DNA of 41,511 nucleotides from a virus. The first letter of the stretch is position 1. Every line of letters starts with the position of its first letter. The position numbers and the translations under genes were made by a program. The notes beneath the pieces were generated by a model. It saw nothing but the letters and a program-made list of their open reading frames with translations. It did no database searches and was not told where the DNA came from. The stretch lies in IMG/VR virus record IMGVR_UViG_3300045988_044506; one strand, given 5' to 3'. Positions 22,262 to 31,408 of the stretch are shown piece after piece.

Positions 22262-22588
22262 ATGGAATGGATAAAAAGGTATTGGATTGAAGCCGTGTTC
22301 GGCGCTGTGATCGCTGCCCTTGGCGGAGCGTACCGCAAGATTGCCAAAAGGCTGAAAGCCCGGCAGGCTGAAGATGAGGCGCTCAAGGACGGCCTGCTTG
22401 CCATCCTGCACGACAGGCTCTACACGGAGTGCAGCAGACACATTGATGCGGGACAAATCGACCTGACAGCAATGAAAAACATCGAATACATCTACAAGGC
22501 GTATCATGCGCTCGGCGGAAACGGAACCGGCACGGAGTTGTATAAGCGGGTGAAGGCGCTCGACCTTGAGAAGGAGGAACATAAATGA
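22262..22588 (+). CDS. Membrane protein with an N-terminal TM helix, possibly a holin partner
   Basis: AAGGAG RBS. Hydrophobic segment WIEAVFGAVIAALGG. Directly upstream of the holin. Confidence 0.45.
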   Translation: MEWIKRYWIEAVFGAVIAALGGAYRKIAKRLKARQAEDEALKDGLLAILHDRLYTECSRHIDAGQIDLTAMKNIEYIYKAYHALGGNGTGTELYKRVKALDLEKEEHK

Positions 22589-22785
22589 AAGAGAACTGGA
22601 AAACGTGGTTTAAGGCAGCGGGCATCCGCGCCATCAAAACCATCGCCCAGACCGCCGTGGCCACCATCGGCACCAGCGCGGTGCTGGGAGATGTAAACTG
22701 GGTGGCCGTGGTCAGCGCGTCGGTGCTGGCGGGCGTGCTCAGCCTGCTGACCAGCGTGGCTGGCCTGCCGGAGGTGGAGGTGTAA
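22585..22785 (+). CDS. Holin (LL-H / phi-LC3-like small holin)
   Basis: 66 aa. Motif RAIKTIAQTAVA plus a second hydrophobic helix. AAGGAGG RBS. Confidence 0.7.
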   Translation: MKENWKTWFKAAGIRAIKTIAQTAVATIGTSAVLGDVNWVAVVSASVLAGVLSLLTSVAGLPEVEV

Positions 22786-22788
22786 GAC

Positions 22789-24831
22789 ATGCCGGACAAG
22801 ATCGTCCACACAATACACTTGGATCGGTACGCGCCTATGCCCGCCCAGATCCAGCTTGGTACAGTCGAGAGCTATGGCGTTGAGCAGATTGCCGTTGTCG
22901 CCGGTGCCGGTTGGGACGGGCTTGACATTGTAGCGGTGTATCATCCGCCCAAAGCGGCGGAGCCGGTGCGTGTGCTCGTGCCGTCAGACGGCCTGTCTGA
23001 TGTGCCCCCGGAGGCGACTGCGTCTGCTGGCCGTGGTGCGCTTGTGATCGCAGGTATGGCGGACGGTGTGCAGATTGCATCCTGCAATATCGCCTATACG
23101 GTGATTGCGCAGGCTGGCACAGACGGCACAACCAGCGACGCGCCAACGCCTGATCTGGTGCAGCAGATCTTGTCTGCCGCGAATGGTGCAGTCAAGACCG
23201 CCGATGGAGTCCGGGCGGACATGGACAAGGTGCTGGAGGCGGAGTCCGGACGGAAAACCGCCGAAGCCGACCGGGCGGCAGCGGAGTCTGAGCGCGTCAC
23301 GGCTGAGACGGCCAGAGCGGAGGCAGAGGCTGACCGCGCCGCCGCTGAAAAGGAGAGGCAAACCGCAGAAAGCGCCCGTATTGCCGCCGAGAATGACCGT
23401 CAGAGCGCGGAGACGGCCCGGGCAAAAGTGGAAACAGCCCGCGAAAGTGCTGAAACTGACCGGGCAACCGCAGAATCCGCCCGCGTTGAGGCGGAAGCGG
23501 AGCGCGCCGATGACGAAAGGTTACGAAAAGATCACGAAACCCAGCGCGTTACCGATGAGAACGCCCGTCAGACTGCCGAGTCCAAGCGGCAAGAGGCCGA
23601 AACAGCCAGAGCTGACGCAGAATCCAAACGCGCTGACGCAGAGCAGTCCCGTGTCAAGGCTGAAACTGATCGTGTGACCTCTGAGACGGCCAGAAAAGAC
23701 GCTGAATCCGAGCGTGCCAGCGCCGAGCAGGAGCGGCAGACGGCAGAGGAGGGGCGTGTAGAAGCCGAATCCTCCCGAGTGAAAGCAGAAGCGGAGCGCG
23801 AAAAGCAGCTGCCTGCGCTTTCTCACTCCGTGGACGAACTGCGCGCCAGACAGAATATCCTTGTCGGCAGTGAGACCGGCAATCCGGTCGCCGTTGACGA
23901 TGCTTTTGCCGCCCCCCTGTGCGGCCTGACCATATACGGCAAGAGCACGCAGGACGGGACGCCGACACCAGATGCGCCTGTACCTATCGTGAGCGCTGGT
24001 GACGGGGGGAGCGTGGCGGTGAAGGTGACGGGGAGGAATCTGGTTTACACGCATGAGTATCAATCTTTTTTCATCAACACAAACGGGTCGCTGGTTGGTT
24101 TAGCCGATGGGAATACATCAATCGTCTTGCAAGTACCCACAGAAGCTGAATACTACGTCACACGGAAGGCTGTCGGAACCAAGTTTAGAGTTGCGGTTGT
24201 CGATAAACTACCTCAATATGGTCATCCTGTTGCCCCGTCCAACAGTGTTTGCAAGGACTCAGCGCGGCAGATAAAAATTTTGACAACGGCCAAATATATG
24301 ATTATACAATGCGAGGCCGAATCTGCTTTTGACGAGTTAATGGTATCATTAGATTTGTCAACCACCTACTCCCCCTACCGCGAACAGATCCTCACACTTT
24401 CCACTCCCAACGGCTTACCCGGCATCCCTGTCACCTCTGGCGGCAACTACACTGACCAAAACGGCCAGCAGTGGGTGTGCGACGAGGTGGATTTGGCAGG
24501 AGAGGTTATGGTGCAGAGGATTGATAAGGCGGCTCTCGACGACACAAAACCGCTTGCCGAACAAAATGCGACGCTCTCAACCCCCATCGAAACACCACTC
24601 ACCGCTGATGAGATCGCCGCATACAAAGCCCTCACCGCTTACGGCCCTGACACTGTGGTGCAGGCCAGCGACGGCGCTGGCATCAAGCTGGACTACCAGC
24701 GGGACGTAAATCTCGTCGTCAAAAATCTTGAGGACGACATTGCAGAGATCGAGGCGTTGGCACAGGCATATTACGACGCGCTGGACGCCGCATCCGCATC
24801 CGCGCCAGCAAAAGAGGAGGAATCCAAATGA
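22789..24831 (+). CDS. Tail fiber protein with a central Ala/Glu/Arg-rich coiled-coil repeat and a C-terminal globular domain
   Basis: 680 aa. About 16 imperfect 11-residue repeats (TAESARxEAEAxR). Confidence 0.65.
   Translation: MPDKIVHTIHLDRYAPMPAQIQLGTVESYGVEQIAVVAGAGWDGLDIVAVYHPPKAAEPVRVLVPSDGLSDVPPEATASAGRGALVIAGMADGVQIASCNIAYTVIAQAGTDGTTSDAPTPDLVQQILSAANGAVKTADGVRADMDKVLEAESGRKTAEADRAAAESERVTAETARAEAEADRAAAEKERQTAESARIAAENDRQSAETARAKVETARESAETDRATAESARVEAEAERADDERLRKDHETQRVTDENARQTAESKRQEAETARADAESKRADAEQSRVKAETDRVTSETARKDAESERASAEQERQTAEEGRVEAESSRVKAEAEREKQLPALSHSVDELRARQNILVGSETGNPVAVDDAFAAPLCGLTIYGKSTQDGTPTPDAPVPIVSAGDGGSVAVKVTGRNLVYTHEYQSFFINTNGSLVGLADGNTSIVLQVPTEAEYYVTRKAVGTKFRVAVVDKLPQYGHPVAPSNSVCKDSARQIKILTTAKYMIIQCEAESAFDELMVSLDLSTTYSPYREQILTLSTPNGLPGIPVTSGGNYTDQNGQQWVCDEVDLAGEVMVQRIDKAALDDTKPLAEQNATLSTPIETPLTADEIAAYKALTAYGPDTVVQASDGAGIKLDYQRDVNLVVKNLEDDIAEIEALAQAYYDALDAASASAPAKEEESK
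23240..23800 (+). repeat. Imperfect 33-bp tandem repeats encoding the coiled-coil segment
   Basis: Read directly from the protein periodicity. Confidence 0.6.
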
Positions 24832-25043
24832 AAAAGATCAAGTATCTCATCGTCACCGCCGCCCTTGCGGCCTGTCTGATCGGCACTGCGTCTGCCGTCA
24901 CGCCCACCATCAAGCCGCCCAAGCTGCCGACGCTGCCGAAAATCAGCGTGACGGTGCCGACCATCAAATTCCCGGACGGGTATTTCGCCGGTATCGTCGG
25001 CAATGTGAAAATTCCGGTGGACAAGCTGCCCAAACTCAAGTAA
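24828..25043 (+). CDS. Small putative lipoprotein with a Pro/Lys-rich mature part
   Basis: Signal peptide with an LAAC lipobox. AGGAGG RBS. Confidence 0.55.
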   Translation: MKKIKYLIVTAALAACLIGTASAVTPTIKPPKLPTLPKISVTVPTIKFPDGYFAGIVGNVKIPVDKLPKLK

Positions 25044-25055
25044 GGAGGAGATTAC

Positions 25056-25955
25056 ATGAGCGTAACCATTGGCCACGCATCTATTGACGAGCGCGGCAAG
25101 GCTTCCGGCGGCAGAGCCGGTGACCAGACCGGGGGCGAAGTCTGCACCCGCAGCTGGTACAACAAAGGCTGGAAATACTGCCTGCGACCCAAGTCTGCCA
25201 GTGTGGCGGAGCGCATGGCGAAAGCCTGCGAACAGGGCTGTGCAAACAACAAAATCGGTTATGACCAGAGCCAGCGCAACGCCCTGCATTACTACGCAAA
25301 GCGGTGCGGCTATAATCTGGCCATTATCAACACCAAATGCGAGACGGACTGCTCTGCATTTATGACGGTTTGTGCCCTCGCTGGCGGTGTCTCCGCACTG
25401 GAGTACAACGGCAATGCACCCACCACCAGAACGATGGTGGACAAGTTCCGTGCGACAGGTGCGTTTACCGTGCTGACGGACGACAAATACCTGACCGGCG
25501 ACGCCTATCTCAAGCGAGGTGACATTCTCGTTAAGCCGGGTAGTCACACCGTCATGGTGCTTTCCAACGGCTCCAAAGCAAGTGCGACGCCTACGCCTTC
25601 CGCTGCTCCTACGCCCGGCAAGCTGACCGTAGACGGACAAATCGGGAAAGGCACCATCAAGGCGTTTCAGCAGCTTCTGGGCACTGCGGCTGACGGCTAC
25701 ATTTCCGGCCAGTCCGCATCTTGCAAAAAGTATTGGCCTGCGATTTGCAATTCCGCTTGCGGCTGGACTGGCGGCAAGTCTCAGTTTGTGGCCGCAATGC
25801 AGTCCGCCGTCGGCACGTCTGCTGATGGTCTGCTGGGCAGGGGTACCGCAAAGGCGTTGCAGTCCTTCCTGTGCGGCGAGGGGTTCCCATGCTCTGTTGA
25901 CGGCGTATTTGGCGCAGAGTCCGCAAAAGCGCTTCAGCGCTGGCTTAACGCATGA
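25056..25955 (+). CDS. Endolysin: NlpC/P60-like cysteine peptidase domain plus two C-terminal peptidoglycan-binding repeats
   Basis: Motifs DCSAF (Cys) and GSHTVMV (His) about 50 aa apart. PG_binding-like repeats DGxxGxGTxKAxQ. AAGGAGG RBS. Confidence 0.8.
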   Translation: MSVTIGHASIDERGKASGGRAGDQTGGEVCTRSWYNKGWKYCLRPKSASVAERMAKACEQGCANNKIGYDQSQRNALHYYAKRCGYNLAIINTKCETDCSAFMTVCALAGGVSALEYNGNAPTTRTMVDKFRATGAFTVLTDDKYLTGDAYLKRGDILVKPGSHTVMVLSNGSKASATPTPSAAPTPGKLTVDGQIGKGTIKAFQQLLGTAADGYISGQSASCKKYWPAICNSACGWTGGKSQFVAAMQSAVGTSADGLLGRGTAKALQSFLCGEGFPCSVDGVFGAESAKALQRWLNA

Positions 25956-26254
25956 CCGACGCTGTTCTTGCCGAAACCCGGCTTAAAATCATCCGCATCC
26001 TGCTGGACGCGCTGAACGAACTTGACCCTAATCCGGCGGACGTAAAGCGTCGCCTGAAACGGATTGCACGGTCTTATGACCTCGCAGAGCTGATTGAGTC
26101 CGCGAACCTGGATGACGTCACAAAGGACATCTTGCACAGGCGCTTTTGCAAACATCAGGATTATGCCACGATTGCCGATTGGGTCGGCTATTCTGAGCGC
26201 ACGATCCGGGCAAAAGTTGACGATGCAATGCCTATCTTAACCAATTTAATTTAG
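25952..26254 (+). CDS. Sigma-70 region-4-like HTH protein
   Basis: HTH-like segment ILHRRFCKHQDYATIADWVGYSERTIRAKV. Confidence 0.5.
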   Translation: MTDAVLAETRLKIIRILLDALNELDPNPADVKRRLKRIARSYDLAELIESANLDDVTKDILHRRFCKHQDYATIADWVGYSERTIRAKVDDAMPILTNLI

Positions 26255-26266
26255 TTTCCTCCTTTT

Positions 26267-26303
26267 GGGCGGTGAGCTTCGGCTTGCCGCCCTTTATTTT
26301 TTT
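26267..26303 (+). terminator. Rho-independent terminator (GGGCGG...CCGCCC followed by a T-run)
   Basis: Read directly. Confidence 0.55.
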
Positions 26304-26353
26304 GCCAATATTGGCAAATTATACTTTACAATGTGCCAATATTGGCTTATAAT
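26301..26353 (+). promoter_or_regulatory. Operator-controlled sigma-A promoter: TTTACA-17-TATAAT with two palindromic operators sharing the core GCCAATATTGGC
   Basis: Perfect 18-bp palindrome TTTGCCAATATTGGCAAA at 26301..26318, just upstream of the -35 (26325..26330). Palindrome GCCAATATTGGC at 26335..26346 lies in the spacer; -10 at 26348..26353. Palindrome centres are 31 bp apart. Confidence 0.7.
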
Positions 26354-26383
26354 ATAGATAACAAAACAAAGGAGGCCACGATT

Positions 26384-26899
26384 ATGCCCACACAGATTTG
26401 CAATTATATCAACGATGCCCCCGCGCCGGACATAGGAATTAGCTATGTCCCCGAAGATGTGGCTGCGCTCGGACTGATCGGCACGGAAAAGCAAATTGCT
26501 TATGCGAGAGACTTGATCTCCAATTATTACCGTGTAATCGAGTTTACGGCCTACAACATCTATTCCCACCGCGACGGCAAGGTTTTGAAGCGGGTCAAGA
26601 AAGATGGAACCACCCTGATTTCCCGGAATACTAAGGATTATACCGAATCCGACCTGCTCGAGCTGCGAAAGTATATCACCCATCAGATCATTAACAATGA
26701 AAAGTTGCATGATGCATCCATCATCATCGACAAATTCCGCCGTATGTGCGAAGATTCCGCACGCAGAGAGGCAAGAGACATCCACCTAGCTGGGGCGGTG
26801 TTCAGCGCCAAACACGGCTGCATGGTCAACTCGGAAACGTCCGAGCCTGTGTCTCTCATCGGGCGGAACGTCGGTCAGATTTCCACAAAATTCGATTGA
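26384..26899 (+). CDS. Hypothetical 171-aa protein, first gene of the operator-controlled cassette. Candidate anti-defence or lysogenic-conversion effector.
   Basis: AAAGGAGG RBS 7 nt before the ATG. No recognisable motifs. Confidence 0.6.
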   Translation: MPTQICNYINDAPAPDIGISYVPEDVAALGLIGTEKQIAYARDLISNYYRVIEFTAYNIYSHRDGKVLKRVKKDGTTLISRNTKDYTESDLLELRKYITHQIINNEKLHDASIIIDKFRRMCEDSARREARDIHLAGAVFSAKHGCMVNSETSEPVSLIGRNVGQISTKFD

Positions 26900-26919
26900 T
26901 GCGGAAGTGAGGGGCAAAA

Positions 26920-27216
26920 ATGGAAATCAATGAGCAACTGGTATTGAGCGCCTACAATAGGCGAAAATCAATCAAGGCAACTGCGCGGGAATTGGGAATC
27001 TCCGAAGGCGTTGTGCGTAAGCACCTGATCGGCGCGGGCGTTGTGGAGACTGCAACGACCCGCAGGATCGCGGAACTCCGTGCGGCAGGAATGCCGCTCA
27101 AAGATATAGCGGAGCTACTCGGAGTTTCCAGCTCCTCCGTTTCGGTCAACACGCCCTATCAAAAGGGCAGTTATCTCACCGCGAACAAAACATATAACGC
27201 TATCAAGATTAGGTAA
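26920..27216 (+). CDS. Small tandem-HTH DNA-binding protein (98 aa)
   Basis: Two HTH-like segments: SIKATARELGISEGVVRKHL and PLKDIAELLGVSSSSV. Confidence 0.6.
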   Translation: MEINEQLVLSAYNRRKSIKATARELGISEGVVRKHLIGAGVVETATTRRIAELRAAGMPLKDIAELLGVSSSSVSVNTPYQKGSYLTANKTYNAIKIR

Positions 27217-27251
27217 TGCAGAGAGCGCAAACGCGCAGAAGGAGAGAAAAA

Positions 27252-27731
27252 ATGAAATCCATCCAGCTGTATCGAATCTACGGGACGCTAGGGCATGAAC
27301 TGCAACCGGTATACGCCGATGCAGAATGCTGCCCGCCTGAAAACCCGTATGAGCTGATTGAGGTAGACCTCCCCAAAGGTTGGGAAGCGTACAAAAATGC
27401 ACTCGGAGAGACTTTGATCGAAAGCCCGGACGGAACGGTTTATCTTGTCGGCGACTGTATCAAAGCGGTTTCCGATAACCCCGTTCTCGCCTGGCACGAC
27501 GAGACAGACCATACCACCGCGCTGAAATGGCGATATAAGAACAATAATGTCCGCGAAATCCGCAATCGGTGCGGGTTAACGCTGCAAGAGCTTTCCGACC
27601 GAACCGGCGTCAACATCCGCCAAATCACGAAACTCGAACAGGGCGAAATCAATATTGAGAATATCACCGCAAAAAATCTAATGGCGCTGGCCGAAGGGCT
27701 AGGAGTAGCCCCGCAGGATCTGTTCTTGTAA
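27252..27731 (+). CDS. XRE-family regulator with an N-terminal domain of unknown function and a C-terminal HTH
   Basis: C-terminal segment IRNRCGLTLQELSDRTGVNIRQITKLEQGE matches HTH_XRE. GAAGGAGAG RBS. Confidence 0.7.
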   Translation: MKSIQLYRIYGTLGHELQPVYADAECCPPENPYELIEVDLPKGWEAYKNALGETLIESPDGTVYLVGDCIKAVSDNPVLAWHDETDHTTALKWRYKNNNVREIRNRCGLTLQELSDRTGVNIRQITKLEQGEINIENITAKNLMALAEGLGVAPQDLFL

Positions 27732-27744
27732 CATTTTCTTCTTA

Positions 27745-27789
27745 CCCGCTGAATCCGATAAAAACGGATTTGGCGGGTTTATTTTTTTA
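27745..27789 (+). terminator. Rho-independent terminator (ACCCGCTGAATCCG-loop-CGGATTTGGCGGGT followed by a T-run)
   Basis: Read directly. Confidence 0.7.
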
Positions 27790-27819
27790 CCCCCTCGAAA
27801 TCGAGGGGGTATTTTTTTT
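27790..27819 (+). terminator. Rho-independent terminator (CCCCCTCGA-aa-TCGAGGGGG followed by T8)
   Basis: Read directly. Forms a tandem pair with the previous terminator. Confidence 0.8.
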
Positions 27820-27893: not shown

Positions 27894-28043
27894 ATGAAAG
27901 CGTTTGAACGGCTGATTCGCGCCGGTGTCCCTGTATGGGAAGCGGCAGAGATCATCGAATGGTATAAGTTGCAGGGCGATGATAACGCCCTTGAGAAATA
28001 CATCACAGAGATTGAGGGCAGGAACCGTGTTCCGGCCTTATAA
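27894..28043 (+). CDS. Small hypothetical protein (49 aa)
   Basis: GAAAGGAG RBS before the ATG at 27894. Confidence 0.45.
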   Translation: MKAFERLIRAGVPVWEAAEIIEWYKLQGDDNALEKYITEIEGRNRVPAL

Positions 28044-28407
28044 TCCAAACCCAACCGGGAAGAACGTGGGCGATTGCACTGTAAGGGCTCTAACAAAAGG
28101 GCTTGAACGCAGTTGGGAAGAGATATATACCGCCCTTGCCCTGCAAGGCTACTTGATGGGCGACTTACCCAGTGCGAACGCCGTCTGGGGCGCGTATCTC
28201 CGGCAGCAGGGTTGGGCGCGGCGCATAATCCCGGACACCTGCCCGGACTGCTACACCGTGGCCGATTTTGCCGCAGATCACCCACGCGGGACATATATCC
28301 TCGCCCTGTCCGGCCACGTCGCCTGTGTGTCAGAGGGCGATCTATGGGACAGCTGGGATTCCAGCGGCGAAGTCCCATTGTATTACTGGGAAAGGAATGA
28401 ACAGTGA
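28027..28407 (+). CDS. Putative papain-superfamily cysteine peptidase (C39-like fold, Cys-His-Asp). GTG start.
   Basis: Motif GDCTVRAL resembles the C39 DCGxAAL Cys motif. SGHVACV resembles the His motif. An Asp follows. Confidence 0.4.
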   Translation: MFRPYNPNPTGKNVGDCTVRALTKGLERSWEEIYTALALQGYLMGDLPSANAVWGAYLRQQGWARRIIPDTCPDCYTVADFAADHPRGTYILALSGHVACVSEGDLWDSWDSSGEVPLYYWERNEQ

Positions 28408-28835
28408 TGGCCTATAACCCCTATATGTACGGAAACCCCTATTATCCGCAGATGCAGTTCCAGCCGATGATGAATCAGCCTAACACCGCGATGGCGCAGC
28501 CTGCACAGCAGCAGAATATGGCACAACCTACACAGCAAATCAATGTGGTCGAGGTCGGCAGTGAGAACGAGGCAACAGGCTATCTTGTCGCTGCCGGTGC
28601 ATCCGTCCTCCTTTGGTGGAGAGCTGGACATAAGTTTTTCTGGAAAAGCCGTGATATGAATGGATCTCCTTACCCGATGAAAACCATGTCTTACACGGAC
28701 GATGACGAACCGACAGCTCCACAGGTTACACCGGAATACATTACCCGGGACGAGTTTAACGGGCTTGTACAAAAGGTGAACAAATTGGAGCAAAAGCCTG
28801 CAAGAAGGGCAAAGGAGGCAGAGCCAGATGTTTAA
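28407..28835 (+). CDS. Q/P/M-rich protein with a hydrophobic WW-containing segment (about 142 aa)
   Basis: AAAGGA RBS. Its N-terminus is paralogous to the next small ORF (MQFQPMMNQ versus MMQFQQMMNQ). Confidence 0.55.
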   Translation: MAYNPYMYGNPYYPQMQFQPMMNQPNTAMAQPAQQQNMAQPTQQINVVEVGSENEATGYLVAAGASVLLWWRAGHKFFWKSRDMNGSPYPMKTMSYTDDDEPTAPQVTPEYITRDEFNGLVQKVNKLEQKPARRAKEAEPDV

Positions 28836-29010
28836 CGGGAACCCGATGATGCAGTTCCAGCAGATGATGAACCAGTTTCAGCAGTTCAGGCAATCGTTTC
28901 AGGGCGACCCGAAGGCCGAGGTGGAAAAGCTGCTCCAGTCCGGCAAGATGAGCCAGCAACAGCTGAACCAGCTTCAGCAAATGGCGAAAATGTTTCAAAA
29001 TTTGATGTAA
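28828..29010 (+). CDS. Small Q/N/M/F-rich prion-like protein (60 aa)
   Basis: AAAGGAGG RBS. Extreme Gln content. Confidence 0.55.
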   Translation: MFNGNPMMQFQQMMNQFQQFRQSFQGDPKAEVEKLLQSGKMSQQQLNQLQQMAKMFQNLM

Positions 29011-29058
29011 ATTTGTGGCCGCAAATTACAAATAAAATCAAACGAGAGGAGTCTTCCA

Positions 29059-29811
29059 ATGAGTCTTAATTCCGATAGCGGCACTGTGATGACAATGCCG
29101 GTTCAGCCTGCCAACACTGGCAATGGTAATGGCTTCGGCTGGGGCGGAGACGGTGCATGGTGGATCATTATCCTGTTTTTGTTCGTGTTCTGCGGTTGGG
29201 GCGGAAACTGGGGCAATAGTGGCTTCGGGGGCAATGGTTCTGGCGCTGTCGATGGCTACGTTCTCACCTCTGACTTTGCCAATATTGAGCGCAAAATCGA
29301 CGTAGTGAACAACGGCTTGTGCGACGGTTTTTACCAGCAGGCGCAGTTGGTCAACGGCGTCCAGCAGAGCATGAGCAATGGCTTTATGTCAGCTGAACTG
29401 TCCCGCGCAAACCAGCAGGCCGCGCTGATGCAGCAGCTGTTCCAGATGCAGATGGCGCAGCAGGAGTGCTGCTGCGAGAACCGGCAGGCGATCGCTCAGG
29501 TGCGGTATGACATGGCTGCACAGTCTTGCGATACCCGCAACACCGTGCAGAATACCACCCGCGACATCATTGACAGCATGAACGCCGGTTTCCGGGGCAT
29601 TGAACAGCGCTTGACCGCGCAGGAGATGGCCCAGAAGGACGCGAAGATTGCCGAGCAGAATCAGCAGATCTTCGCCGCCCAGCTGGCTGCGTCTCAGGCG
29701 GCGCAGAACAACTATCTGGTCACCACCCTTAGACCTACCCCTATCCCTGCCTACCAGTCCTGCAACCCGTGGGCTAGTAACGCGGCTCTGGGGTGCTGCG
29801 CCTCCTGCTGA
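29059..29811 (+). CDS. Membrane protein with Gly-rich flanks, a WW-containing TM helix, Gln-rich helices, a CCC motif and a Cys-rich C-terminus (GCCASC)
   Basis: GAGAGGAG RBS. Composition read directly. Confidence 0.6.
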   Translation: MSLNSDSGTVMTMPVQPANTGNGNGFGWGGDGAWWIIILFLFVFCGWGGNWGNSGFGGNGSGAVDGYVLTSDFANIERKIDVVNNGLCDGFYQQAQLVNGVQQSMSNGFMSAELSRANQQAALMQQLFQMQMAQQECCCENRQAIAQVRYDMAAQSCDTRNTVQNTTRDIIDSMNAGFRGIEQRLTAQEMAQKDAKIAEQNQQIFAAQLAASQAAQNNYLVTTLRPTPIPAYQSCNPWASNAALGCCASC

Positions 29812-29877
29812 TAACTAAACACATCAGCTTCCGAGAAATCCTCGGATGGTCAACCCCGTGTTGATACTGAGATTTTG

Positions 29878-29908
29878 CGGCGGGGTGATATGCCCCGCCG
29901 TTTTTTTT
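29878..29908 (+). terminator. Rho-independent terminator (CGGCGGGG-tgatatg-CCCCGCCG followed by T8)
   Basis: Read directly. Confidence 0.7.
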
Positions 29909-29923
29909 GAAAGGACTGAGAAA

Positions 29924-30346
29924 ATGGCTGAATACACAAACTCCAAGATTACGTCTGTTGTCGCCGGGCAGAATGTGCCCCTGACCGAAACCGCCGTTGC
30001 GGGTAAGCCCTGCATCGTGCATCGTGAGGGCGCTGGCATCGTCACGCTGCGTGGACTGACCAACCAGTGTAAAGCGCGTTTTAAGGTTTCCTTCGGCGCG
30101 AATATCGCTATCCCCACGGGCGGCACGGTAGAGGCAATCACCGCCGCACTGGCGATCAATGGGGAACCGCTGCCCAGCGCAACTGCTACCGTGACTCCTG
30201 CCGCTGTGGAAAATTACTGGAACATCTATGTGGCGGCCTTCGTAGAAGTCCCTCGTGGCTGCTGCGTGACCGTTGCCGCAGAAAACACCAGTGCTCAGGC
30301 CGTCAGCTTTGCCAACAGCAATCTGATTGTCGAGCGCGTATGCTGA
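29924..30346 (+). CDS. Hypothetical beta-rich 141-aa protein with conserved Cys residues (C30, C49, CC123-124, C-terminal Cys)
   Basis: AAAGGA RBS and ATG at 29924. Confidence 0.55.
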   Translation: MAEYTNSKITSVVAGQNVPLTETAVAGKPCIVHREGAGIVTLRGLTNQCKARFKVSFGANIAIPTGGTVEAITAALAINGEPLPSATATVTPAAVENYWNIYVAAFVEVPRGCCVTVAAENTSAQAVSFANSNLIVERVC

Positions 30347-30359
30347 AAGGAGGAGAAAC

Positions 30360-30752
30360 ATGGCGAACTACGATGACCTGATGAAAATGCTCTGCGACGA
30401 GCTGGAGGACATCAAAAAGGATATGAGGAGCCGTGGTGCGTCCGCTGAAACGCTAGACGCCATCCGCGATATTACCAGCTCCATCAAAAACATCTACAAG
30501 ATTGAGATGTTCGAGGATCTCGACGGTTACAGCGGCGACTGGGACGATGACCGCGATATGTACCGGCGCGGCAACAGCTACGCCAAACGCGGAACGCACT
30601 ACGTCCGCGGCCATTACAGCAAAAGCAGATACAGCCGGGACGACGCAAAGTCTCATATGATCGACCAGCTGGACGAGATGATGGAGCAGGCGGACACCGC
30701 CGAGATGAAAGACGCAATCCGCCGTTGCAAAGATCAGCTCGAGCGCGCATAA
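30360..30752 (+). CDS. Hypothetical helical protein with a central Tyr/Arg/Ser/Gly-rich low-complexity segment
   Basis: AAAGGAGG RBS. Confidence 0.6.
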   Translation: MANYDDLMKMLCDELEDIKKDMRSRGASAETLDAIRDITSSIKNIYKIEMFEDLDGYSGDWDDDRDMYRRGNSYAKRGTHYVRGHYSKSRYSRDDAKSHMIDQLDEMMEQADTAEMKDAIRRCKDQLERA

Positions 30753-30768
30753 TAAGGGGTGAGTAAAT

Positions 30769-31134
30769 ATGCTGGATGCCAAAGAGATCAACGCCGAAAT
30801 TGCGCGGCTCGAATACGTTGAATCCAGCTACCCTAATTATGCGAAGCTGGCAGACCTATACATCATCCGTGACAGAATGGAGGGCAACGCAGAAAAACCG
30901 TTAGCCTACGAACAGTTATACTCTGCTGCGCCGGCATACGAGTCTGTCCGAGCGCGTCCGAGTGTGTCCAGCCAGTCCGAGATTGATGCCTACGGAGACA
31001 GCGACTTTTTGCGCAGCATATCCGGCAAAGACCCGCAGAAGGTGTGGGACATCGTGGACGAGCTGATGGACACGCTCAAGATTGTCAACCAGCGGACGTA
31101 TGATGGAGTCATGCGCAAGATTGAGCAAATATAA
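30769..31134 (+). CDS. Hypothetical protein with architecture similar to the preceding gene
   Basis: AAGGGGTGAG RBS. Confidence 0.55.
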   Translation: MLDAKEINAEIARLEYVESSYPNYAKLADLYIIRDRMEGNAEKPLAYEQLYSAAPAYESVRARPSVSSQSEIDAYGDSDFLRSISGKDPQKVWDIVDELMDTLKIVNQRTYDGVMRKIEQI

Positions 31135-31408
31135 TGCAATCCCCCAGCCGAAAAAGCTGGGGGATTTGCCGTATCAAAAACGTATCAAAAGGCAAAATTC
31201 ACGCTACTTAATTCACACAGAAACAAGCCTTAATCTTCATCAAAATACACAAAAATGCGTTAGCGCACAATGGATTGCGTGTTTTGTCAGTCTATGATAA
31301 AATAAAACGCCCACAAAACCCGCTGATATTTACCATTGTGAAACTGATGGAATAAGCCAAAATAGTCATAATCTGCAATTTTTAAATGTAAAAAATGAAA
31401 TGCGAGAT
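31135..31408. other. Candidate attP region: AT-rich, adjacent to the integrase 3' end, with direct repeat CGTATCAAAA x2 (31171..31195) as possible arm-type sites
   Basis: Position next to int and the base composition. The core site cannot be defined without a host sequence. Confidence 0.4.
31139..31166 (+). terminator. Hairpin ATCCCCCAGC-cgaaaaa-GCTGGGGGAT with a weak U-tract
   Basis: Read directly. Confidence 0.35.

What the first reader, a model, noticed from the sequence alone, without database searches (positions are those of the whole stretch)
27894..31134. Eight-gene cluster of compositionally aberrant small proteins: Q/N-rich paralogs, a Gly/Cys-rich membrane protein and a C39-like peptidase
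The cluster sits between the tandem terminators and attP. Every gene has a strong RBS. It encodes:
- a 49-aa protein;
- a roughly 126-aa protein whose GDCTVRAL ... SGHVACV ... D pattern resembles papain-superfamily C39-like peptidases;
- two paralogous Gln/Met/Asn-rich proteins (143 and 60 aa) with prion-like composition and shared N-termini;
- a 250-aa protein combining a Gly-rich WW-containing TM helix, Gln-rich helices, a CCC motif and a Cys-rich C-terminus;
- a beta-rich 141-aa protein with paired cysteines;
- two related helical proteins with Tyr/Arg/Ser low-complexity cores.
None resembles standard phage structural, lysis or lysogeny proteins. The composition (Gln-, Gly- and Cys-rich) recalls spore-coat / appendage or aggregation-prone proteins. 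The peptidase could process them. An internal terminator at 29878-29908 splits the cluster into two transcription units.
Basis: partly seen in the sequence, partly recalled or inferred. Interest (0 to 1): 0.7.

Follow-up and report, generated by a model that had tools for sequence, protein, structure and literature searches.

The report
Conserved eight-gene phage accessory operon
The eight odd-looking small genes are real and form a fixed-order cassette, with a built-in structured RNA, carried by very many phages of gut and rumen Clostridia; its function is unknown, but it is very unlikely to be a spore-coat system.

Summary
The eight ORFs, their ribosome-binding sites, their unusual composition and the internal terminator are all in the sequence as described.

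- **Conservation.** The gene order g2 to g8 recurs in 22 genome/MAG loci and 80 IMG/VR loci. At least 577 IMG/VR contigs carry a g6 relative.
- **g6.** It is a distant relative of the BclA C-terminal domain, below Pfam's cut-off.
- **Other genes.** g5 and the remaining proteins match only PHROGs of unknown function.
- **Paralogy.** The claimed pairs g3/g4 and g7/g8 are not supported.
- **The "internal terminator".** It is part of a conserved three-hairpin RNA, present once per locus in 92 loci, with strong covariation and no Rfam family.
- **Spore-coat reading.** The whole cassette is also in the cultured, integrase-less, lytic Butyrivibrio phage Ceridwen. Its host does not form spores, so a sporulation role is unlikely and a purely lysogenic role is weakened.
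- **Dispensability.** Phages with distantly related endolysins lack the cassette, which suggests it is accessory.

My best guess, at low confidence, is a late/lytic membrane-anchored protein assembly matured by the peptidase.

The parts
25952..26254 (+). h1: a small HTH protein resembling sigma-70 region 4. It is the conserved upstream neighbour of the cassette and a possible dedicated regulator.
   Evidence: Pfam Sigma70_r4 gives E=0.0078, below the cut-off. A gene of the same type ends just upstream of the cassette in most loci and in phage Ceridwen. In the close relative L104 it is separated from g1 only by terminators.
27744..27811 (+). Two tandem intrinsic-terminator-like hairpins directly upstream of g1. 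A third lies at 26267-26292, just after h1.
   Evidence: One search finds the hairpins. Terminator-like hairpins occur upstream of g2 in 45 of 91 loci under a strict test.
27894..28043 (+). g1: a 49-aa helical protein.
   Evidence: ORF with a strong RBS. Small ORFs at the same position share the pattern ERL(I/L)xxG(F/Y)xxxxAxxI...L..YV..E in 19 loci under strict criteria.
28027..28407 (+). g2: a 126-aa papain-fold cysteine peptidase with Cys17-His97-Asp108 and an invariant CPxC motif at 72-75.
28404..28835 (+). g3: a 143-aa protein with a Gln/Pro/Tyr/Met-rich N-terminus, a conserved beta-type core of about 55 aa (WVxGExxA...LWD...YxK..D.sG.P), then a conserved 'EYVTRxEF' helix and a charged tail.
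   Evidence: It matches phrog_21718. It is fused to g2 in P0354 and P0333. Pfam and PDB give no match.
28828..29010 (+). g4: a 60-aa Gln/Met-rich helical protein with the conserved core F..F...GDP..V..LL.SG.MSQ.Q.
   Evidence: It matches phrog_22984 at 2.2e-15. Most homologues carry an extra N-terminal 'NPFFNALGGG' segment that is absent here.
29059..29811 (+). g5: a 250-aa protein. It has a charge-poor N-terminal segment, one hydrophobic helix flanked by GWGG motifs, Gln-rich helices, an invariant CCC motif and a Cys-rich C-terminus.
   Evidence: It matches phrog_16490 at 3.3e-44. More than 7700 homologues exist, none named. The invariant residues are G46, W47, G48, C88, C137-139 and C247. 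The AlphaFold2 model is not confident (pLDDT 44.6; only helix 33-44 is moderately confident).
29812..29923 (+). Conserved structured RNA between g5 and g6. HP1 is at 29830-29846, HP2 at 29849-29865, and HP3 at 29877-29901 followed by a U-run; the g6 Shine-Dalgarno sequence comes next.
   Evidence: Sequences are. HP1 forms in 22 of 22 sequences although the sequences differ. RNAalifold gives the consensus fold. Covariance model R1 finds exactly one copy per locus in 92 loci. 99.1% of cells are paired, 11 of 15 pairs show compensatory changes, and 0 of 500 shuffles reach these values. No Rfam family matches.
29924..30346 (+). g6: a 140-aa beta-rich protein that resembles the BclA C-terminal domain (the TNF/C1q-type jelly roll is assumed from that family, not modelled). 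It is the most conserved member of the cassette.
   Evidence: It matches phrog_20016 at 3.2e-58. Pfam BclA_C gives E=3.6e-4 over the full length, 20.8 bits against a cut-off of 38. Three of 20 family members match, the best at 8.7e-9. A PDB profile search gives no hit.
30360..30752 (+). g7: a 130-aa protein with two conserved helices around a Tyr/Arg/Ser/Gly-rich core (GYS...RG.SYARRG.HYVRGHYSR).
   Evidence: The alignments are. There is no convincing Pfam, PHROG or PDB match.
30769..31134 (+). g8: a 121-aa helical protein with the conserved motif GDSDF...W..(M/V)DELMDTL..(V/I)N.R.Y.
   Evidence: The alignments are. No family matches. It is present in 69 of the loci tested and in Ceridwen.
31138..31166 (.). 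GC-rich hairpin immediately after g8, marking the end of the cassette.
   Evidence: One search reports it on the - strand; on the + strand its T-run is weak.

Best explanation
This is a self-contained phage accessory operon, g1 to g8, with an upstream sigma-region-4-like HTH gene and an internal structured RNA. It is carried in the same order by many siphoviruses of gut and rumen Clostridia, usually at the far end of the late region just after the lysis genes.

I think it acts in the lytic cycle and builds a membrane-anchored multiprotein assembly. All of the following steps are inferred, not shown:
1. g5 inserts into the cytoplasmic membrane through its Gly/Trp-flanked hydrophobic helix. An N-out, C-in topology is inferred from the charge-free N-terminus.
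2. The Gln-rich, Cys-bearing helical part of g5 recruits the cytoplasmic partners, none of which shows a signal-peptide-like or other hydrophobic N-terminus: g3, g4, the BclA_C-like g6, g7 and g8.
3. The papain-fold Cys-His-Asp peptidase g2, which is translationally coupled to g3 and fused to it in some phages, matures a component. Gly-Gly sites in g5 and g4 are candidate cleavage sites. Alternatively g2 cuts cell-wall peptides.
4. The conserved hairpin-terminator RNA between g5 and g6 sets the ratio between the g1-g5 half and the g6-g8 half.

The cassette appears dispensable for making virions. It most likely helps the end-game of infection, meaning lysis, release or envelope modification.
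For: **Shown**
- The gene order g2 to g8 is conserved in 22 genome/MAG loci, down to 30% g5 identity, and in 80 IMG/VR loci. At least 577 IMG/VR contigs carry a g6 relative.
- The whole cassette is in Butyrivibrio virus Ceridwen. That phage has no integrase, all its genes run in one direction, and it has been seen only in the lytic cycle (PMC7372960).
- The cassette follows non-homologous lysis genes in different phages: ELLD in the window, PGRP in Dulem virus 33, a glucosaminidase in Ceridwen, and a holin directly before a g2-g3 fusion.
- In three Lachnospiraceae phages it lies among the head genes, on the same strand.
- g2 has a papain fold and an invariant triad. g2-g3 fusions exist. The start and stop codons of g1 to g4 overlap.
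- Only g5 has a hydrophobic helix. Its N-terminal segment almost never holds Lys or Arg.
- The RNA element occurs once per locus and covaries. Terminator-like hairpins occur only in the g5-g6 gap within the cassette.

**Inferred**
- Late expression, the topology of g5, assembly of the proteins into one complex, the substrate of g2, and any role in lysis or release.
Against: - There are no expression data.
- Up to three terminators insulate the cassette from the late operon. No sigma-70-type promoter is seen in front of g1 (my reading). Timing is therefore unknown.
- The window phage already has a holin-like gene (22585-22785) and an endolysin, so no lysis function is obviously missing.
- Phages with distantly related endolysins run directly from lysin to integrase without the cassette.
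- No physical interaction between the proteins has been shown.
- The g5 model is not confident.
- The position next to attP and the integrase in most temperate carriers is the classic place for genes expressed from the prophage.
Confidence: 0.33

Rival explanations
1. Prophage-expressed cassette (a moron). In this reading it is a membrane-associated superinfection-exclusion, defence or host-fitness system expressed in the lysogen, insulated from late transcription by the upstream terminators and switched on by the adjacent HTH protein.
For: - In most temperate carriers it lies between the lysis genes and attP/integrase.
- It is flanked by terminators.
- It is absent from phages that carry distantly related endolysins, which suggests it is dispensable.
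- Its flanks are not conserved, so it looks mobile.
- Selfish insertions inside it suggest a region that tolerates change.
Against: - It is present in the integrase-less, lytic phage Ceridwen (PMC7372960).
- It gives no PADLOC hit.
- It has no NTPase, nuclease or other typical defence enzyme.
- Its strict colinearity and its presence in at least 577 IMG/VR contigs are unlike patchy defence islands.
- It sits inside head-gene clusters in three phages.
- In several loci there is no room for a promoter between the terminator and g1.
Confidence: 0.2
2. Accessory virion appendage or decoration. A trimeric g6 knob sits on a g5 coiled-coil stalk, is cross-linked through cysteines, and is assembled with the help of g1, g4, g7, g8 and the peptidase g2.
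For: - g6 is BclA_C-like, a domain that forms terminal knobs on filaments (the role of the domain is my own knowledge).
- Every cassette protein except g5 lacks any hydrophobic segment in the scan, as expected for virion parts made in the cytoplasm.
- The cassette runs in the late direction and lies among head genes in three phages.
- Conserved cysteines occur in g5, g6 and g7.
- Carriers often share related SPP1-like structural genes. Ceridwen's major capsid protein is 34% identical to the window's and that of L023 is 55% identical.
Against: - The cassette also occurs with structural modules that show no detectable similarity (L001, L019, L022).
- g6 is the most conserved member (81-95% identity across 80 loci), unlike receptor-binding knobs.
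- g5 has a membrane-type hydrophobic helix.
- The cassette is separated from the structural genes by the lysis genes and by terminators.
Confidence: 0.17
3. Second lysin plus helpers. g2 is the catalytic subunit and g3 the wall-binding subunit of a two-part or fused cell-wall endopeptidase. The other proteins modulate lysis.
For: - The g2-g3 fusion has the layout catalytic domain, Gln/Pro linker, small beta domain, as modular endolysins do. It sits directly after a holin.
- The cassette is adjacent to lysis genes in many phages.
Against: - No Pfam CHAP, NlpC/P60 or SH3b match is found.
- The phage already has an endolysin.
- This reading leaves g5 to g8 unexplained.
- g2 homologues in Geobacillus phage GBK2 and Bacillus phage Tsamsa lie among small hypothetical genes and have no annotated lysis gene next to them.
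Confidence: 0.12
4. Bacteriocin-like or leader-processing system. g5, and perhaps g4, are precursors whose Gly-Gly leader is removed by the C39-like g2, releasing a Gly/Trp-rich membrane-active protein.
For: - g2 is structurally close to double-glycine C39 peptidases.
- One class of g5 N-termini reads 'YSLADIAAATGG'. This resembles the LSxxELxxIxGG leader consensus, which I recall from my own knowledge.
- GWGG motifs flank the hydrophobic helix.
- Most g4 homologues start with 'NPFFNALGGG'.
Against: - There is no ABC transporter, immunity gene or modifying enzyme.
- There is no Pfam Peptidase_C39 match.
- The window's own g4 lacks the GGG segment, and its g5 has the other N-terminal type (TMPVQPAN).
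- g5 is far larger than such peptides.
Confidence: 0.08
5. One reading: spore-coat, exosporium or appendage proteins that the prophage adds to host spores.
For: - g6 resembles BclA_C.
- The composition is rich in Cys, Gln, Gly and Tyr.
- The absence of signal-peptide-like N-termini would fit assembly in a mother cell.
Against: - The complete cassette is in a lytic phage of the non-sporulating Butyrivibrio fibrisolvens (PMC7372960; the host trait is my own knowledge).
- Some carrier MAGs are assigned to Subdoligranulum and Christensenella. I know these as non-spore-formers, but binning of phage contigs is unreliable.
- There are no collagen repeats and no exosporium leader.
- No NCBIfam sporulation family matches.
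Confidence: 0.03

Closest known systems
Peptidase C39 (double-glycine leader peptidase domains of PCAT/AMS/ComA transporters) and Josephin-type deubiquitinases
   Different: There is no sequence-level match. g2 is a stand-alone protein without a signal-peptide-like N-terminus and is not fused to a transporter. It carries an extra invariant CPxC motif. No substrate is known. In some phages it is fused to a Gln-rich beta-domain protein instead.
BclA C-terminal domain (PF18573), the exosporium filament knob of Bacillus and Clostridioides
   Same: g6 aligns over the whole length of the domain, and some family members reach E=8.7e-9.
   Different: The window protein scores below Pfam's cut-off. It has no collagen-like repeats and no exosporium targeting leader. 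It is encoded by phages, including phages of non-sporulating hosts. The fold was not modelled here.
Phage morons / lysogenic-conversion cassettes next to attP
   Same: The cassette is optional, flanked by terminators, lies between the lysis genes and the integrase, and is shared among phages with different flanks.
   Different: It has eight colinear genes, far more than usual. No promoter of its own is recognisable. It is also found in a lytic phage without an integrase and inside head-gene clusters.
Two-component or modular endolysins (for example PlyC; PeiW/PeiP/PeiR-type cysteine endoisopeptidases)
   Same: Both have a Cys-His-Asp catalytic unit plus a separate or fused small binding-type domain. 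Both sit next to the holin and lysin, and g2 and g3 lack signal-peptide-like N-termini.
   Different: No homology to wall-binding domains is detectable. The closest structural neighbours are protein-cleaving enzymes. The phage already encodes an endolysin.
Leader/attenuator RNAs and processive-antitermination RNAs of phages (for example HK022 put; named from my own knowledge)
   Same: These are conserved hairpins on the sense strand that end in an intrinsic terminator, placed between two parts of one operon.
   Different: No Rfam family matches. The alternative antiterminator pairing I looked for is not supported in divergent members. In most loci with insertions the element stays with the 3' end of g5.

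Membership tests
Peptidase C39 (PF03412) / papain-like cysteine peptidases | Papain-like alpha+beta fold | tested here: met
Peptidase C39 (PF03412) / papain-like cysteine peptidases | Conserved catalytic Cys and His, plus Asp or Asn, in papain order | tested here: met
   C17, H97 and D108 are invariant in 44 sequences. Their positions in the model's active site were not inspected.
Peptidase C39 (PF03412) / papain-like cysteine peptidases | Match to the family HMM | tested here: not met
   No Pfam or NCBIfam hit at E<=1. A PDB profile search gives no peptidase.
Peptidase C39 (PF03412) / papain-like cysteine peptidases | Fusion to, or partnership with, an ABC exporter, and substrates with a double-glycine leader | tested here: not met
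   No transporter is present in the window cassette or in the related loci. Gly-Gly motifs exist in g5 and g4, but they are not canonical leaders.
Peptidase C39 (PF03412) / papain-like cysteine peptidases | Proteolytic activity | not testable with these tools
   This needs an enzyme assay.
BclA_C (PF18573) | HMM score above Pfam's gathering cut-off | tested here: not met
   g6 scores 20.8 bits against a cut-off of 38 (E=3.6e-4, full-length alignment).
BclA_C (PF18573) | Family-level relationship | tested here: inconclusive
   Three of 20 homologues match at E<=0.01, the best at 8.7e-9. A profile search against PDB sequences finds no BclA.
BclA_C (PF18573) | Trimeric TNF/C1q-like jelly-roll fold | not tested
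BclA_C (PF18573) | Preceding collagen-like GXX repeats and an exosporium leader | tested here: not met
   g6 is 140 aa and consists of the domain alone.
Prion-like Q/N-rich domains | A long stretch strongly enriched in Gln/Asn and poor in charged residues | tested here: inconclusive
   The maximum Q+N in a 40-aa window is 40% for g3, 37.5% for g4 and 35% for g5. PLAAC was not available. The Gln-rich parts of g4 and g5 fall in conserved regions, and for g5 partly in helices of a low-confidence model, rather than in disordered tails.
Moron / lysogenic-conversion cassette | Own promoter and terminator, with expression from the prophage | tested here: inconclusive
   Terminators are present. No sigma-70-type promoter is found in front of g1. 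Expression cannot be tested here.
Moron / lysogenic-conversion cassette | Restricted to temperate phages | tested here: not met
   The full cassette is present in the integrase-less, lytic phage Ceridwen (PMC7372960).
Known anti-phage defence systems (PADLOC 2.0) | Match to any defence protein model | tested here: not met
   None of the eight proteins gives a hit.
Any Rfam 15 RNA family (for the g5-g6 element) | Score at or above the gathering threshold | tested here: not met
   There are no hits at gathering thresholds in the whole window. Only a weak terminator-like match overlaps the element (suhB/mmgR, 21.5 bits against 41).

The most novel reading that the evidence does not exclude
The cassette is a previously undescribed phage machine that is widespread in gut and rumen Clostridia phages. 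In this reading it is a protease-matured, membrane-anchored assembly of Gln-, Cys- and Tyr/Arg-rich proteins capped by a BclA_C-like protein. It would act at the end of infection, in envelope breaching or remodelling or in coating of progeny. Its two halves would be balanced by a new class of cis-acting structured RNA.
Probability: 0.2. Interest if true: 0.8.

Novelty: new variant of a known kind. Interest (0 to 1): 0.6.

Why it matters
- **Scale.** The cassette is one of the larger conserved blocks of unknown function in phages of dominant gut and rumen Firmicutes. The g5 family alone has more than 7700 clusters at 90% identity, and none is named.
- **A tractable system exists.** I could place the cassette in a cultured phage-host pair, Butyrivibrio virus Ceridwen on B. 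fibrisolvens DSM 3071. The question of what it does is therefore directly testable by deletion, transcript time course and virion proteomics.
- **Concrete handles.** There are three: a confidently modelled Cys-His-Asp peptidase, natural g2-g3 fusions, and a covarying RNA element absent from Rfam.
- **Payoff.** If the function concerns lysis, release or particle survival, it would bear on how temperate gut phages spread.

Tried and rejected
- **Paralogy of g3/g4 and g7/g8.** Rejected by BLASTP and hhalign.
- **Named families.** Pfam, NCBIfam, PADLOC and PDB-sequence profile searches for g1 to g8 found nothing beyond the weak BclA_C match.
- **g5 structure.** The prediction failed (pLDDT 44.6), so no fold search was possible.
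- **afdb50 library.** It was not available.
- **Domain fusions of g2.** Longer g2 relatives were scanned for informative Pfam domains. None was found, apart from tandem duplications and the g3 fusions.
- **Literature searches.** Searches for PHROG ids, BclA with prophage, C1q-like phage proteins, and phage papain/Josephin/C39 found nothing on this cassette.
- **Antiterminator pairing.** An HP2-loop to HP3-5'-arm pairing looked plausible in common variants. It does not hold in register in divergent members such as L013, L019, L022 and L023, so I do not claim it.
- **Upstream ORF at the AUG before HP2.** Rejected, because that codon is CUG or UUG in many loci and lacks a Shine-Dalgarno sequence.
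- **Canonical lysis role for g5.** A holin-like gene already exists at 22585-22785.
- **Sporulation link.** Rejected on host range.

Full report
**1. What is in the sequence**

| Gene | Coordinates | Length |
|---|---|---|
| g1 | 27894-28043 | 49 aa |
| g2 | 28027-28407 | 126 aa, GTG start |
| g3 | 28404-28835 | 143 aa |
| g4 | 28828-29010 | 60 aa |
| g5 | 29059-29811 | 250 aa |
| g6 | 29924-30346 | 140 aa |
| g7 | 30360-30752 | 130 aa |
| g8 | 30769-31134 | 121 aa |

- Each start has a purine-rich Shine-Dalgarno sequence 5-10 nt upstream. I read this directly.
- g1/g2, g2/g3 and g3/g4 overlap, which implies translational coupling.
- The unusual composition is real when compared with 26 other ORFs of the window. 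g4 is 26.7% Gln and 15% Met. g5 is 11.2% Gln, 8.8% Asn, 10% Gly and 4% Cys.
- The surrounding window is a siphovirus-type prophage or phage. It has SPP1-like packaging and head genes, a tape-measure gene, Dit/Tal-type tail genes, a holin-like gene at 22585-22785, and an ELLD-type endolysin at 25056-25955.

**2. Are these real genes?**

Yes.
- Five of the eight match PHROG families, all annotated "unknown function".
- g5 has more than 7700 homologues at E<=0.001 in the large protein collection, none of them named.
- g2 has about 1200 homologues there and 2718 cluster representatives in an exhaustive profile search.

**3. Conservation as a unit**

- In 22 loci from GTDB genomes and MAGs, the genes g2-g3-g4-g5-g6(-g7-g8) recur in the same order on one strand, down to 30% g5 identity. 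Most of these are assigned to Oscillospiraceae, Lachnospiraceae or other Clostridia. The endolysin and integrase flanks are mostly not homologous.
The 80 best all show the same order.
- g1 is too divergent for BLAST. A small ORF with the same pattern sits at the same place in many loci.
- Conservation ranks roughly g6 > g4, g5, g2 > g7, g8 > g3.
- The junctions g4/g5 and g5/g6 are hot spots for inserted genes, an endonuclease, a probable DNA methyltransferase and two unannotated genes.
- Phages with distantly related endolysins (33-66% identity) often run straight from lysin to integrase and lack the cassette. It therefore looks accessory.
- The close relative L104 lacks the three genes at 26293-27731. 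Those are a separate insertion with their own strong promoter.

**4. Individual proteins**

*g2*
- Cys17, His97 and Asp108 are invariant, as is a CPxC motif, in 44 homologues.
- The AlphaFold2 model is confident (pLDDT 93.8, pTM 0.88).
- There is no sequence-level family match.
- BFVD shows the same fold in many uncharacterised phage proteins.
- Stand-alone homologues exist in Bacillus Tsamsa-like phages, Geobacillus phage GBK2 and Lak megaphages.

*g2-g3 link*
- Two database proteins are g2-g3 fusions (P0354 and P0333).
- P0354 is a continuous gene that follows a holin and precedes a g4-like gene.
- Together with the overlapping stop and start codons, this ties g2 functionally to g3.

*g3*
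- It has a fast-evolving Gln/Pro/Tyr-rich N-terminus and a conserved core of about 55 residues.
- A conserved "EYVTRxEF" helix and a charged tail follow.
- Nothing matches in Pfam or PDB.

*g4*
- It is a conserved Gln/Met-rich helical protein.

*g5*
- It has one hydrophobic helix flanked by GWGG motifs, an invariant CCC motif, further conserved cysteines and a Cys-rich tail.
- Its N-terminal segment comes in two interchangeable types and almost never holds Lys or Arg.
- The structure prediction failed (pLDDT 44.6).

*g6*
- It aligns over the full length of Pfam BclA_C, but below the cut-off.
- Three of 20 relatives match, the best at 8.7e-9.

*g7 and g8*
- These are helical proteins without relatives in any library searched.
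- g7 has a Tyr/Arg/Ser/Gly-rich core.

*Paralogy and other checks*
- g3/g4 and g7/g8 are not detectably related.
- No PADLOC defence model matches.
- Apart from g5, none of the cassette proteins has a hydrophobic segment in a simple scan. None shows a signal-peptide-like N-terminus by eye; no dedicated predictor was run.

**5. The "internal terminator" is part of a conserved RNA**

The g5-g6 spacer is a conserved element of about 100 nt.
- **HP1.** A hairpin whose sequence varies freely but which always forms. It forms in 22 of 22 sequences. In the window it lies at 29830-29846.
- **HP2.** GUCRRC-CCCGU-GYYGAU, with A-U to G-C compensatory changes. In the window it lies at 29849-29865.
- **HP3.** A sequence-conserved GC hairpin followed by a U-run (29877-29901 plus the run), and then the g6 ribosome-binding site.

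The evidence for structure is strong.
- RNAalifold predicts HP2 and HP3.
- A covariance model finds exactly one copy per locus in 92 loci, always after g5.
- On that alignment 99.1% of cells pair and 11 of 15 pairs have compensatory changes. No shuffle out of 500, and no slid register, approaches these values.
- Frequent G-U pairs show that the + strand is the folded strand.
- Rfam 15 has no such family.
- Within the cassette, terminator-like hairpins occur only in this gap (37 of 93 loci under a strict test, none in the other gaps).
- Where genes are inserted between g5 and g6, the element usually stays with g5 and once stays with g6.
- Ceridwen lacks room for the element, because its g5-g6 gap is only 12 nt.
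- I could not support an antiterminator alternative or a leader peptide.

**6. Context and timing**

- In most loci the gene just upstream encodes a small HTH protein resembling sigma-70 region 4 (below threshold), followed by one or more terminators.
- In several loci the space between the terminator and g1 is too short for a promoter. No sigma-70-type promoter is seen in the window either.
- Expression therefore depends on read-through, antitermination or a non-canonical promoter. The timing is unknown.

**7. The key comparative result**

- Butyrivibrio virus Ceridwen (MN882553.2) is a cultured siphovirus. It carries the regulator-like gene, a terminator, a g1-like ORF, g2, g3, g4, g5, g6, an inserted gene (unannotated; only a weak HTH match), g7 and g8, directly after its endolysin and before its early genes.
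- It has no integrase, and all its genes point the same way.
- Its authors saw only lytic growth and concluded that it is virulent (PMC7372960).
- Its structural genes are 27-52% identical to those of the window.
- The host does not form spores (my own knowledge).
- This makes a spore-coat role very unlikely and a purely lysogenic role less likely. It also provides an experimental system.
- In three Lachnospiraceae phages the cassette sits between the Mu-F-like head gene and the scaffold and capsid genes. This again fits late expression.

**8. Interpretation**

*Shown*
- A conserved, mobile, accessory eight-gene operon.
- A papain-fold peptidase linked to g3.
- One membrane-type protein and one BclA_C-like protein.
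- A covarying RNA element.

*Inferred*
- Lytic or late action.
- A membrane-anchored assembly nucleated by g5.
- Processing by g2.
- Dosage control by the RNA.

I give this reading about one chance in three. No known system accommodates the set as a whole.

**9. Verdict**

The finding is a genuine, widespread, uncharacterised phage module with a new RNA motif. I score interest at 0.6.

Noticed in passing
window 29812-29923 (and one copy in each of 92 related loci): The g5-g6 spacer is a conserved three-hairpin RNA ending in a sequence-conserved terminator. It shows strong covariation (99.1% of cells paired, 11 of 15 pairs compensatory) and has no Rfam family.
   Followed up: yes
window 26293-27731: Three genes are inserted here relative to the close relative L104: a 188-aa unknown, a 98-aa double-HTH protein and a 171-aa XRE-type HTH protein. 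The insertion sits exactly between the first and second of three terminators. It has its own near-consensus promoter at 26325-26353, and the XRE protein weakly matches PADLOC 'control protein/capH' models.
   Followed up: partly
window 25952-26254; L184 22048-22269; L004 7675-7923: A small HTH gene resembling sigma-70 region 4 almost always sits directly upstream of the cassette, in phages whose other flanking genes differ. It may be the cassette's dedicated regulator.
   Followed up: partly
L001 8947-9498; L004 10816-11655; L022 11030-12145; L184 24928-25722: The g4/g5 and g5/g6 junctions, and in Ceridwen the g6/g7 junction, repeatedly hold inserted genes, an annotated endonuclease, a probable DNA methyltransferase (read from the sequence) and two unannotated genes, without disturbing the order of the cassette genes.
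   Followed up: partly
window 29059-29160 and g5 homologues: g5 N-termini come in two interchangeable types: '...TMPV(A/Q)PAN...' as in the window, and '...(Y)SLADIAAATGG...'. The second type loosely resembles a double-glycine leader.
   Followed up: partly
L185 (Geobacillus phage GBK2) 4980-5369; L186 (Bacillus phage Tsamsa) 3974-4369; Lak megaphages: Stand-alone g2-like peptidases, 30-36% identical, occur among small hypothetical genes in unrelated phages, without the rest of the cassette.
   Followed up: partly
window 22585-24831: The only holin-like gene (66 aa, 22585-22785) is separated from the endolysin by a 680-aa protein with a long run of 'AE(T/S)xR'-type coiled-coil repeats, and by a 71-aa protein with a signal-peptide-like N-terminus (24828-25043).
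   Followed up: no
P0348 and P0365 (g2 relatives): Some g2 relatives are tandem duplications of the peptidase domain. One of them (P0365) has an N-terminal hydrophobic segment.
   Followed up: no
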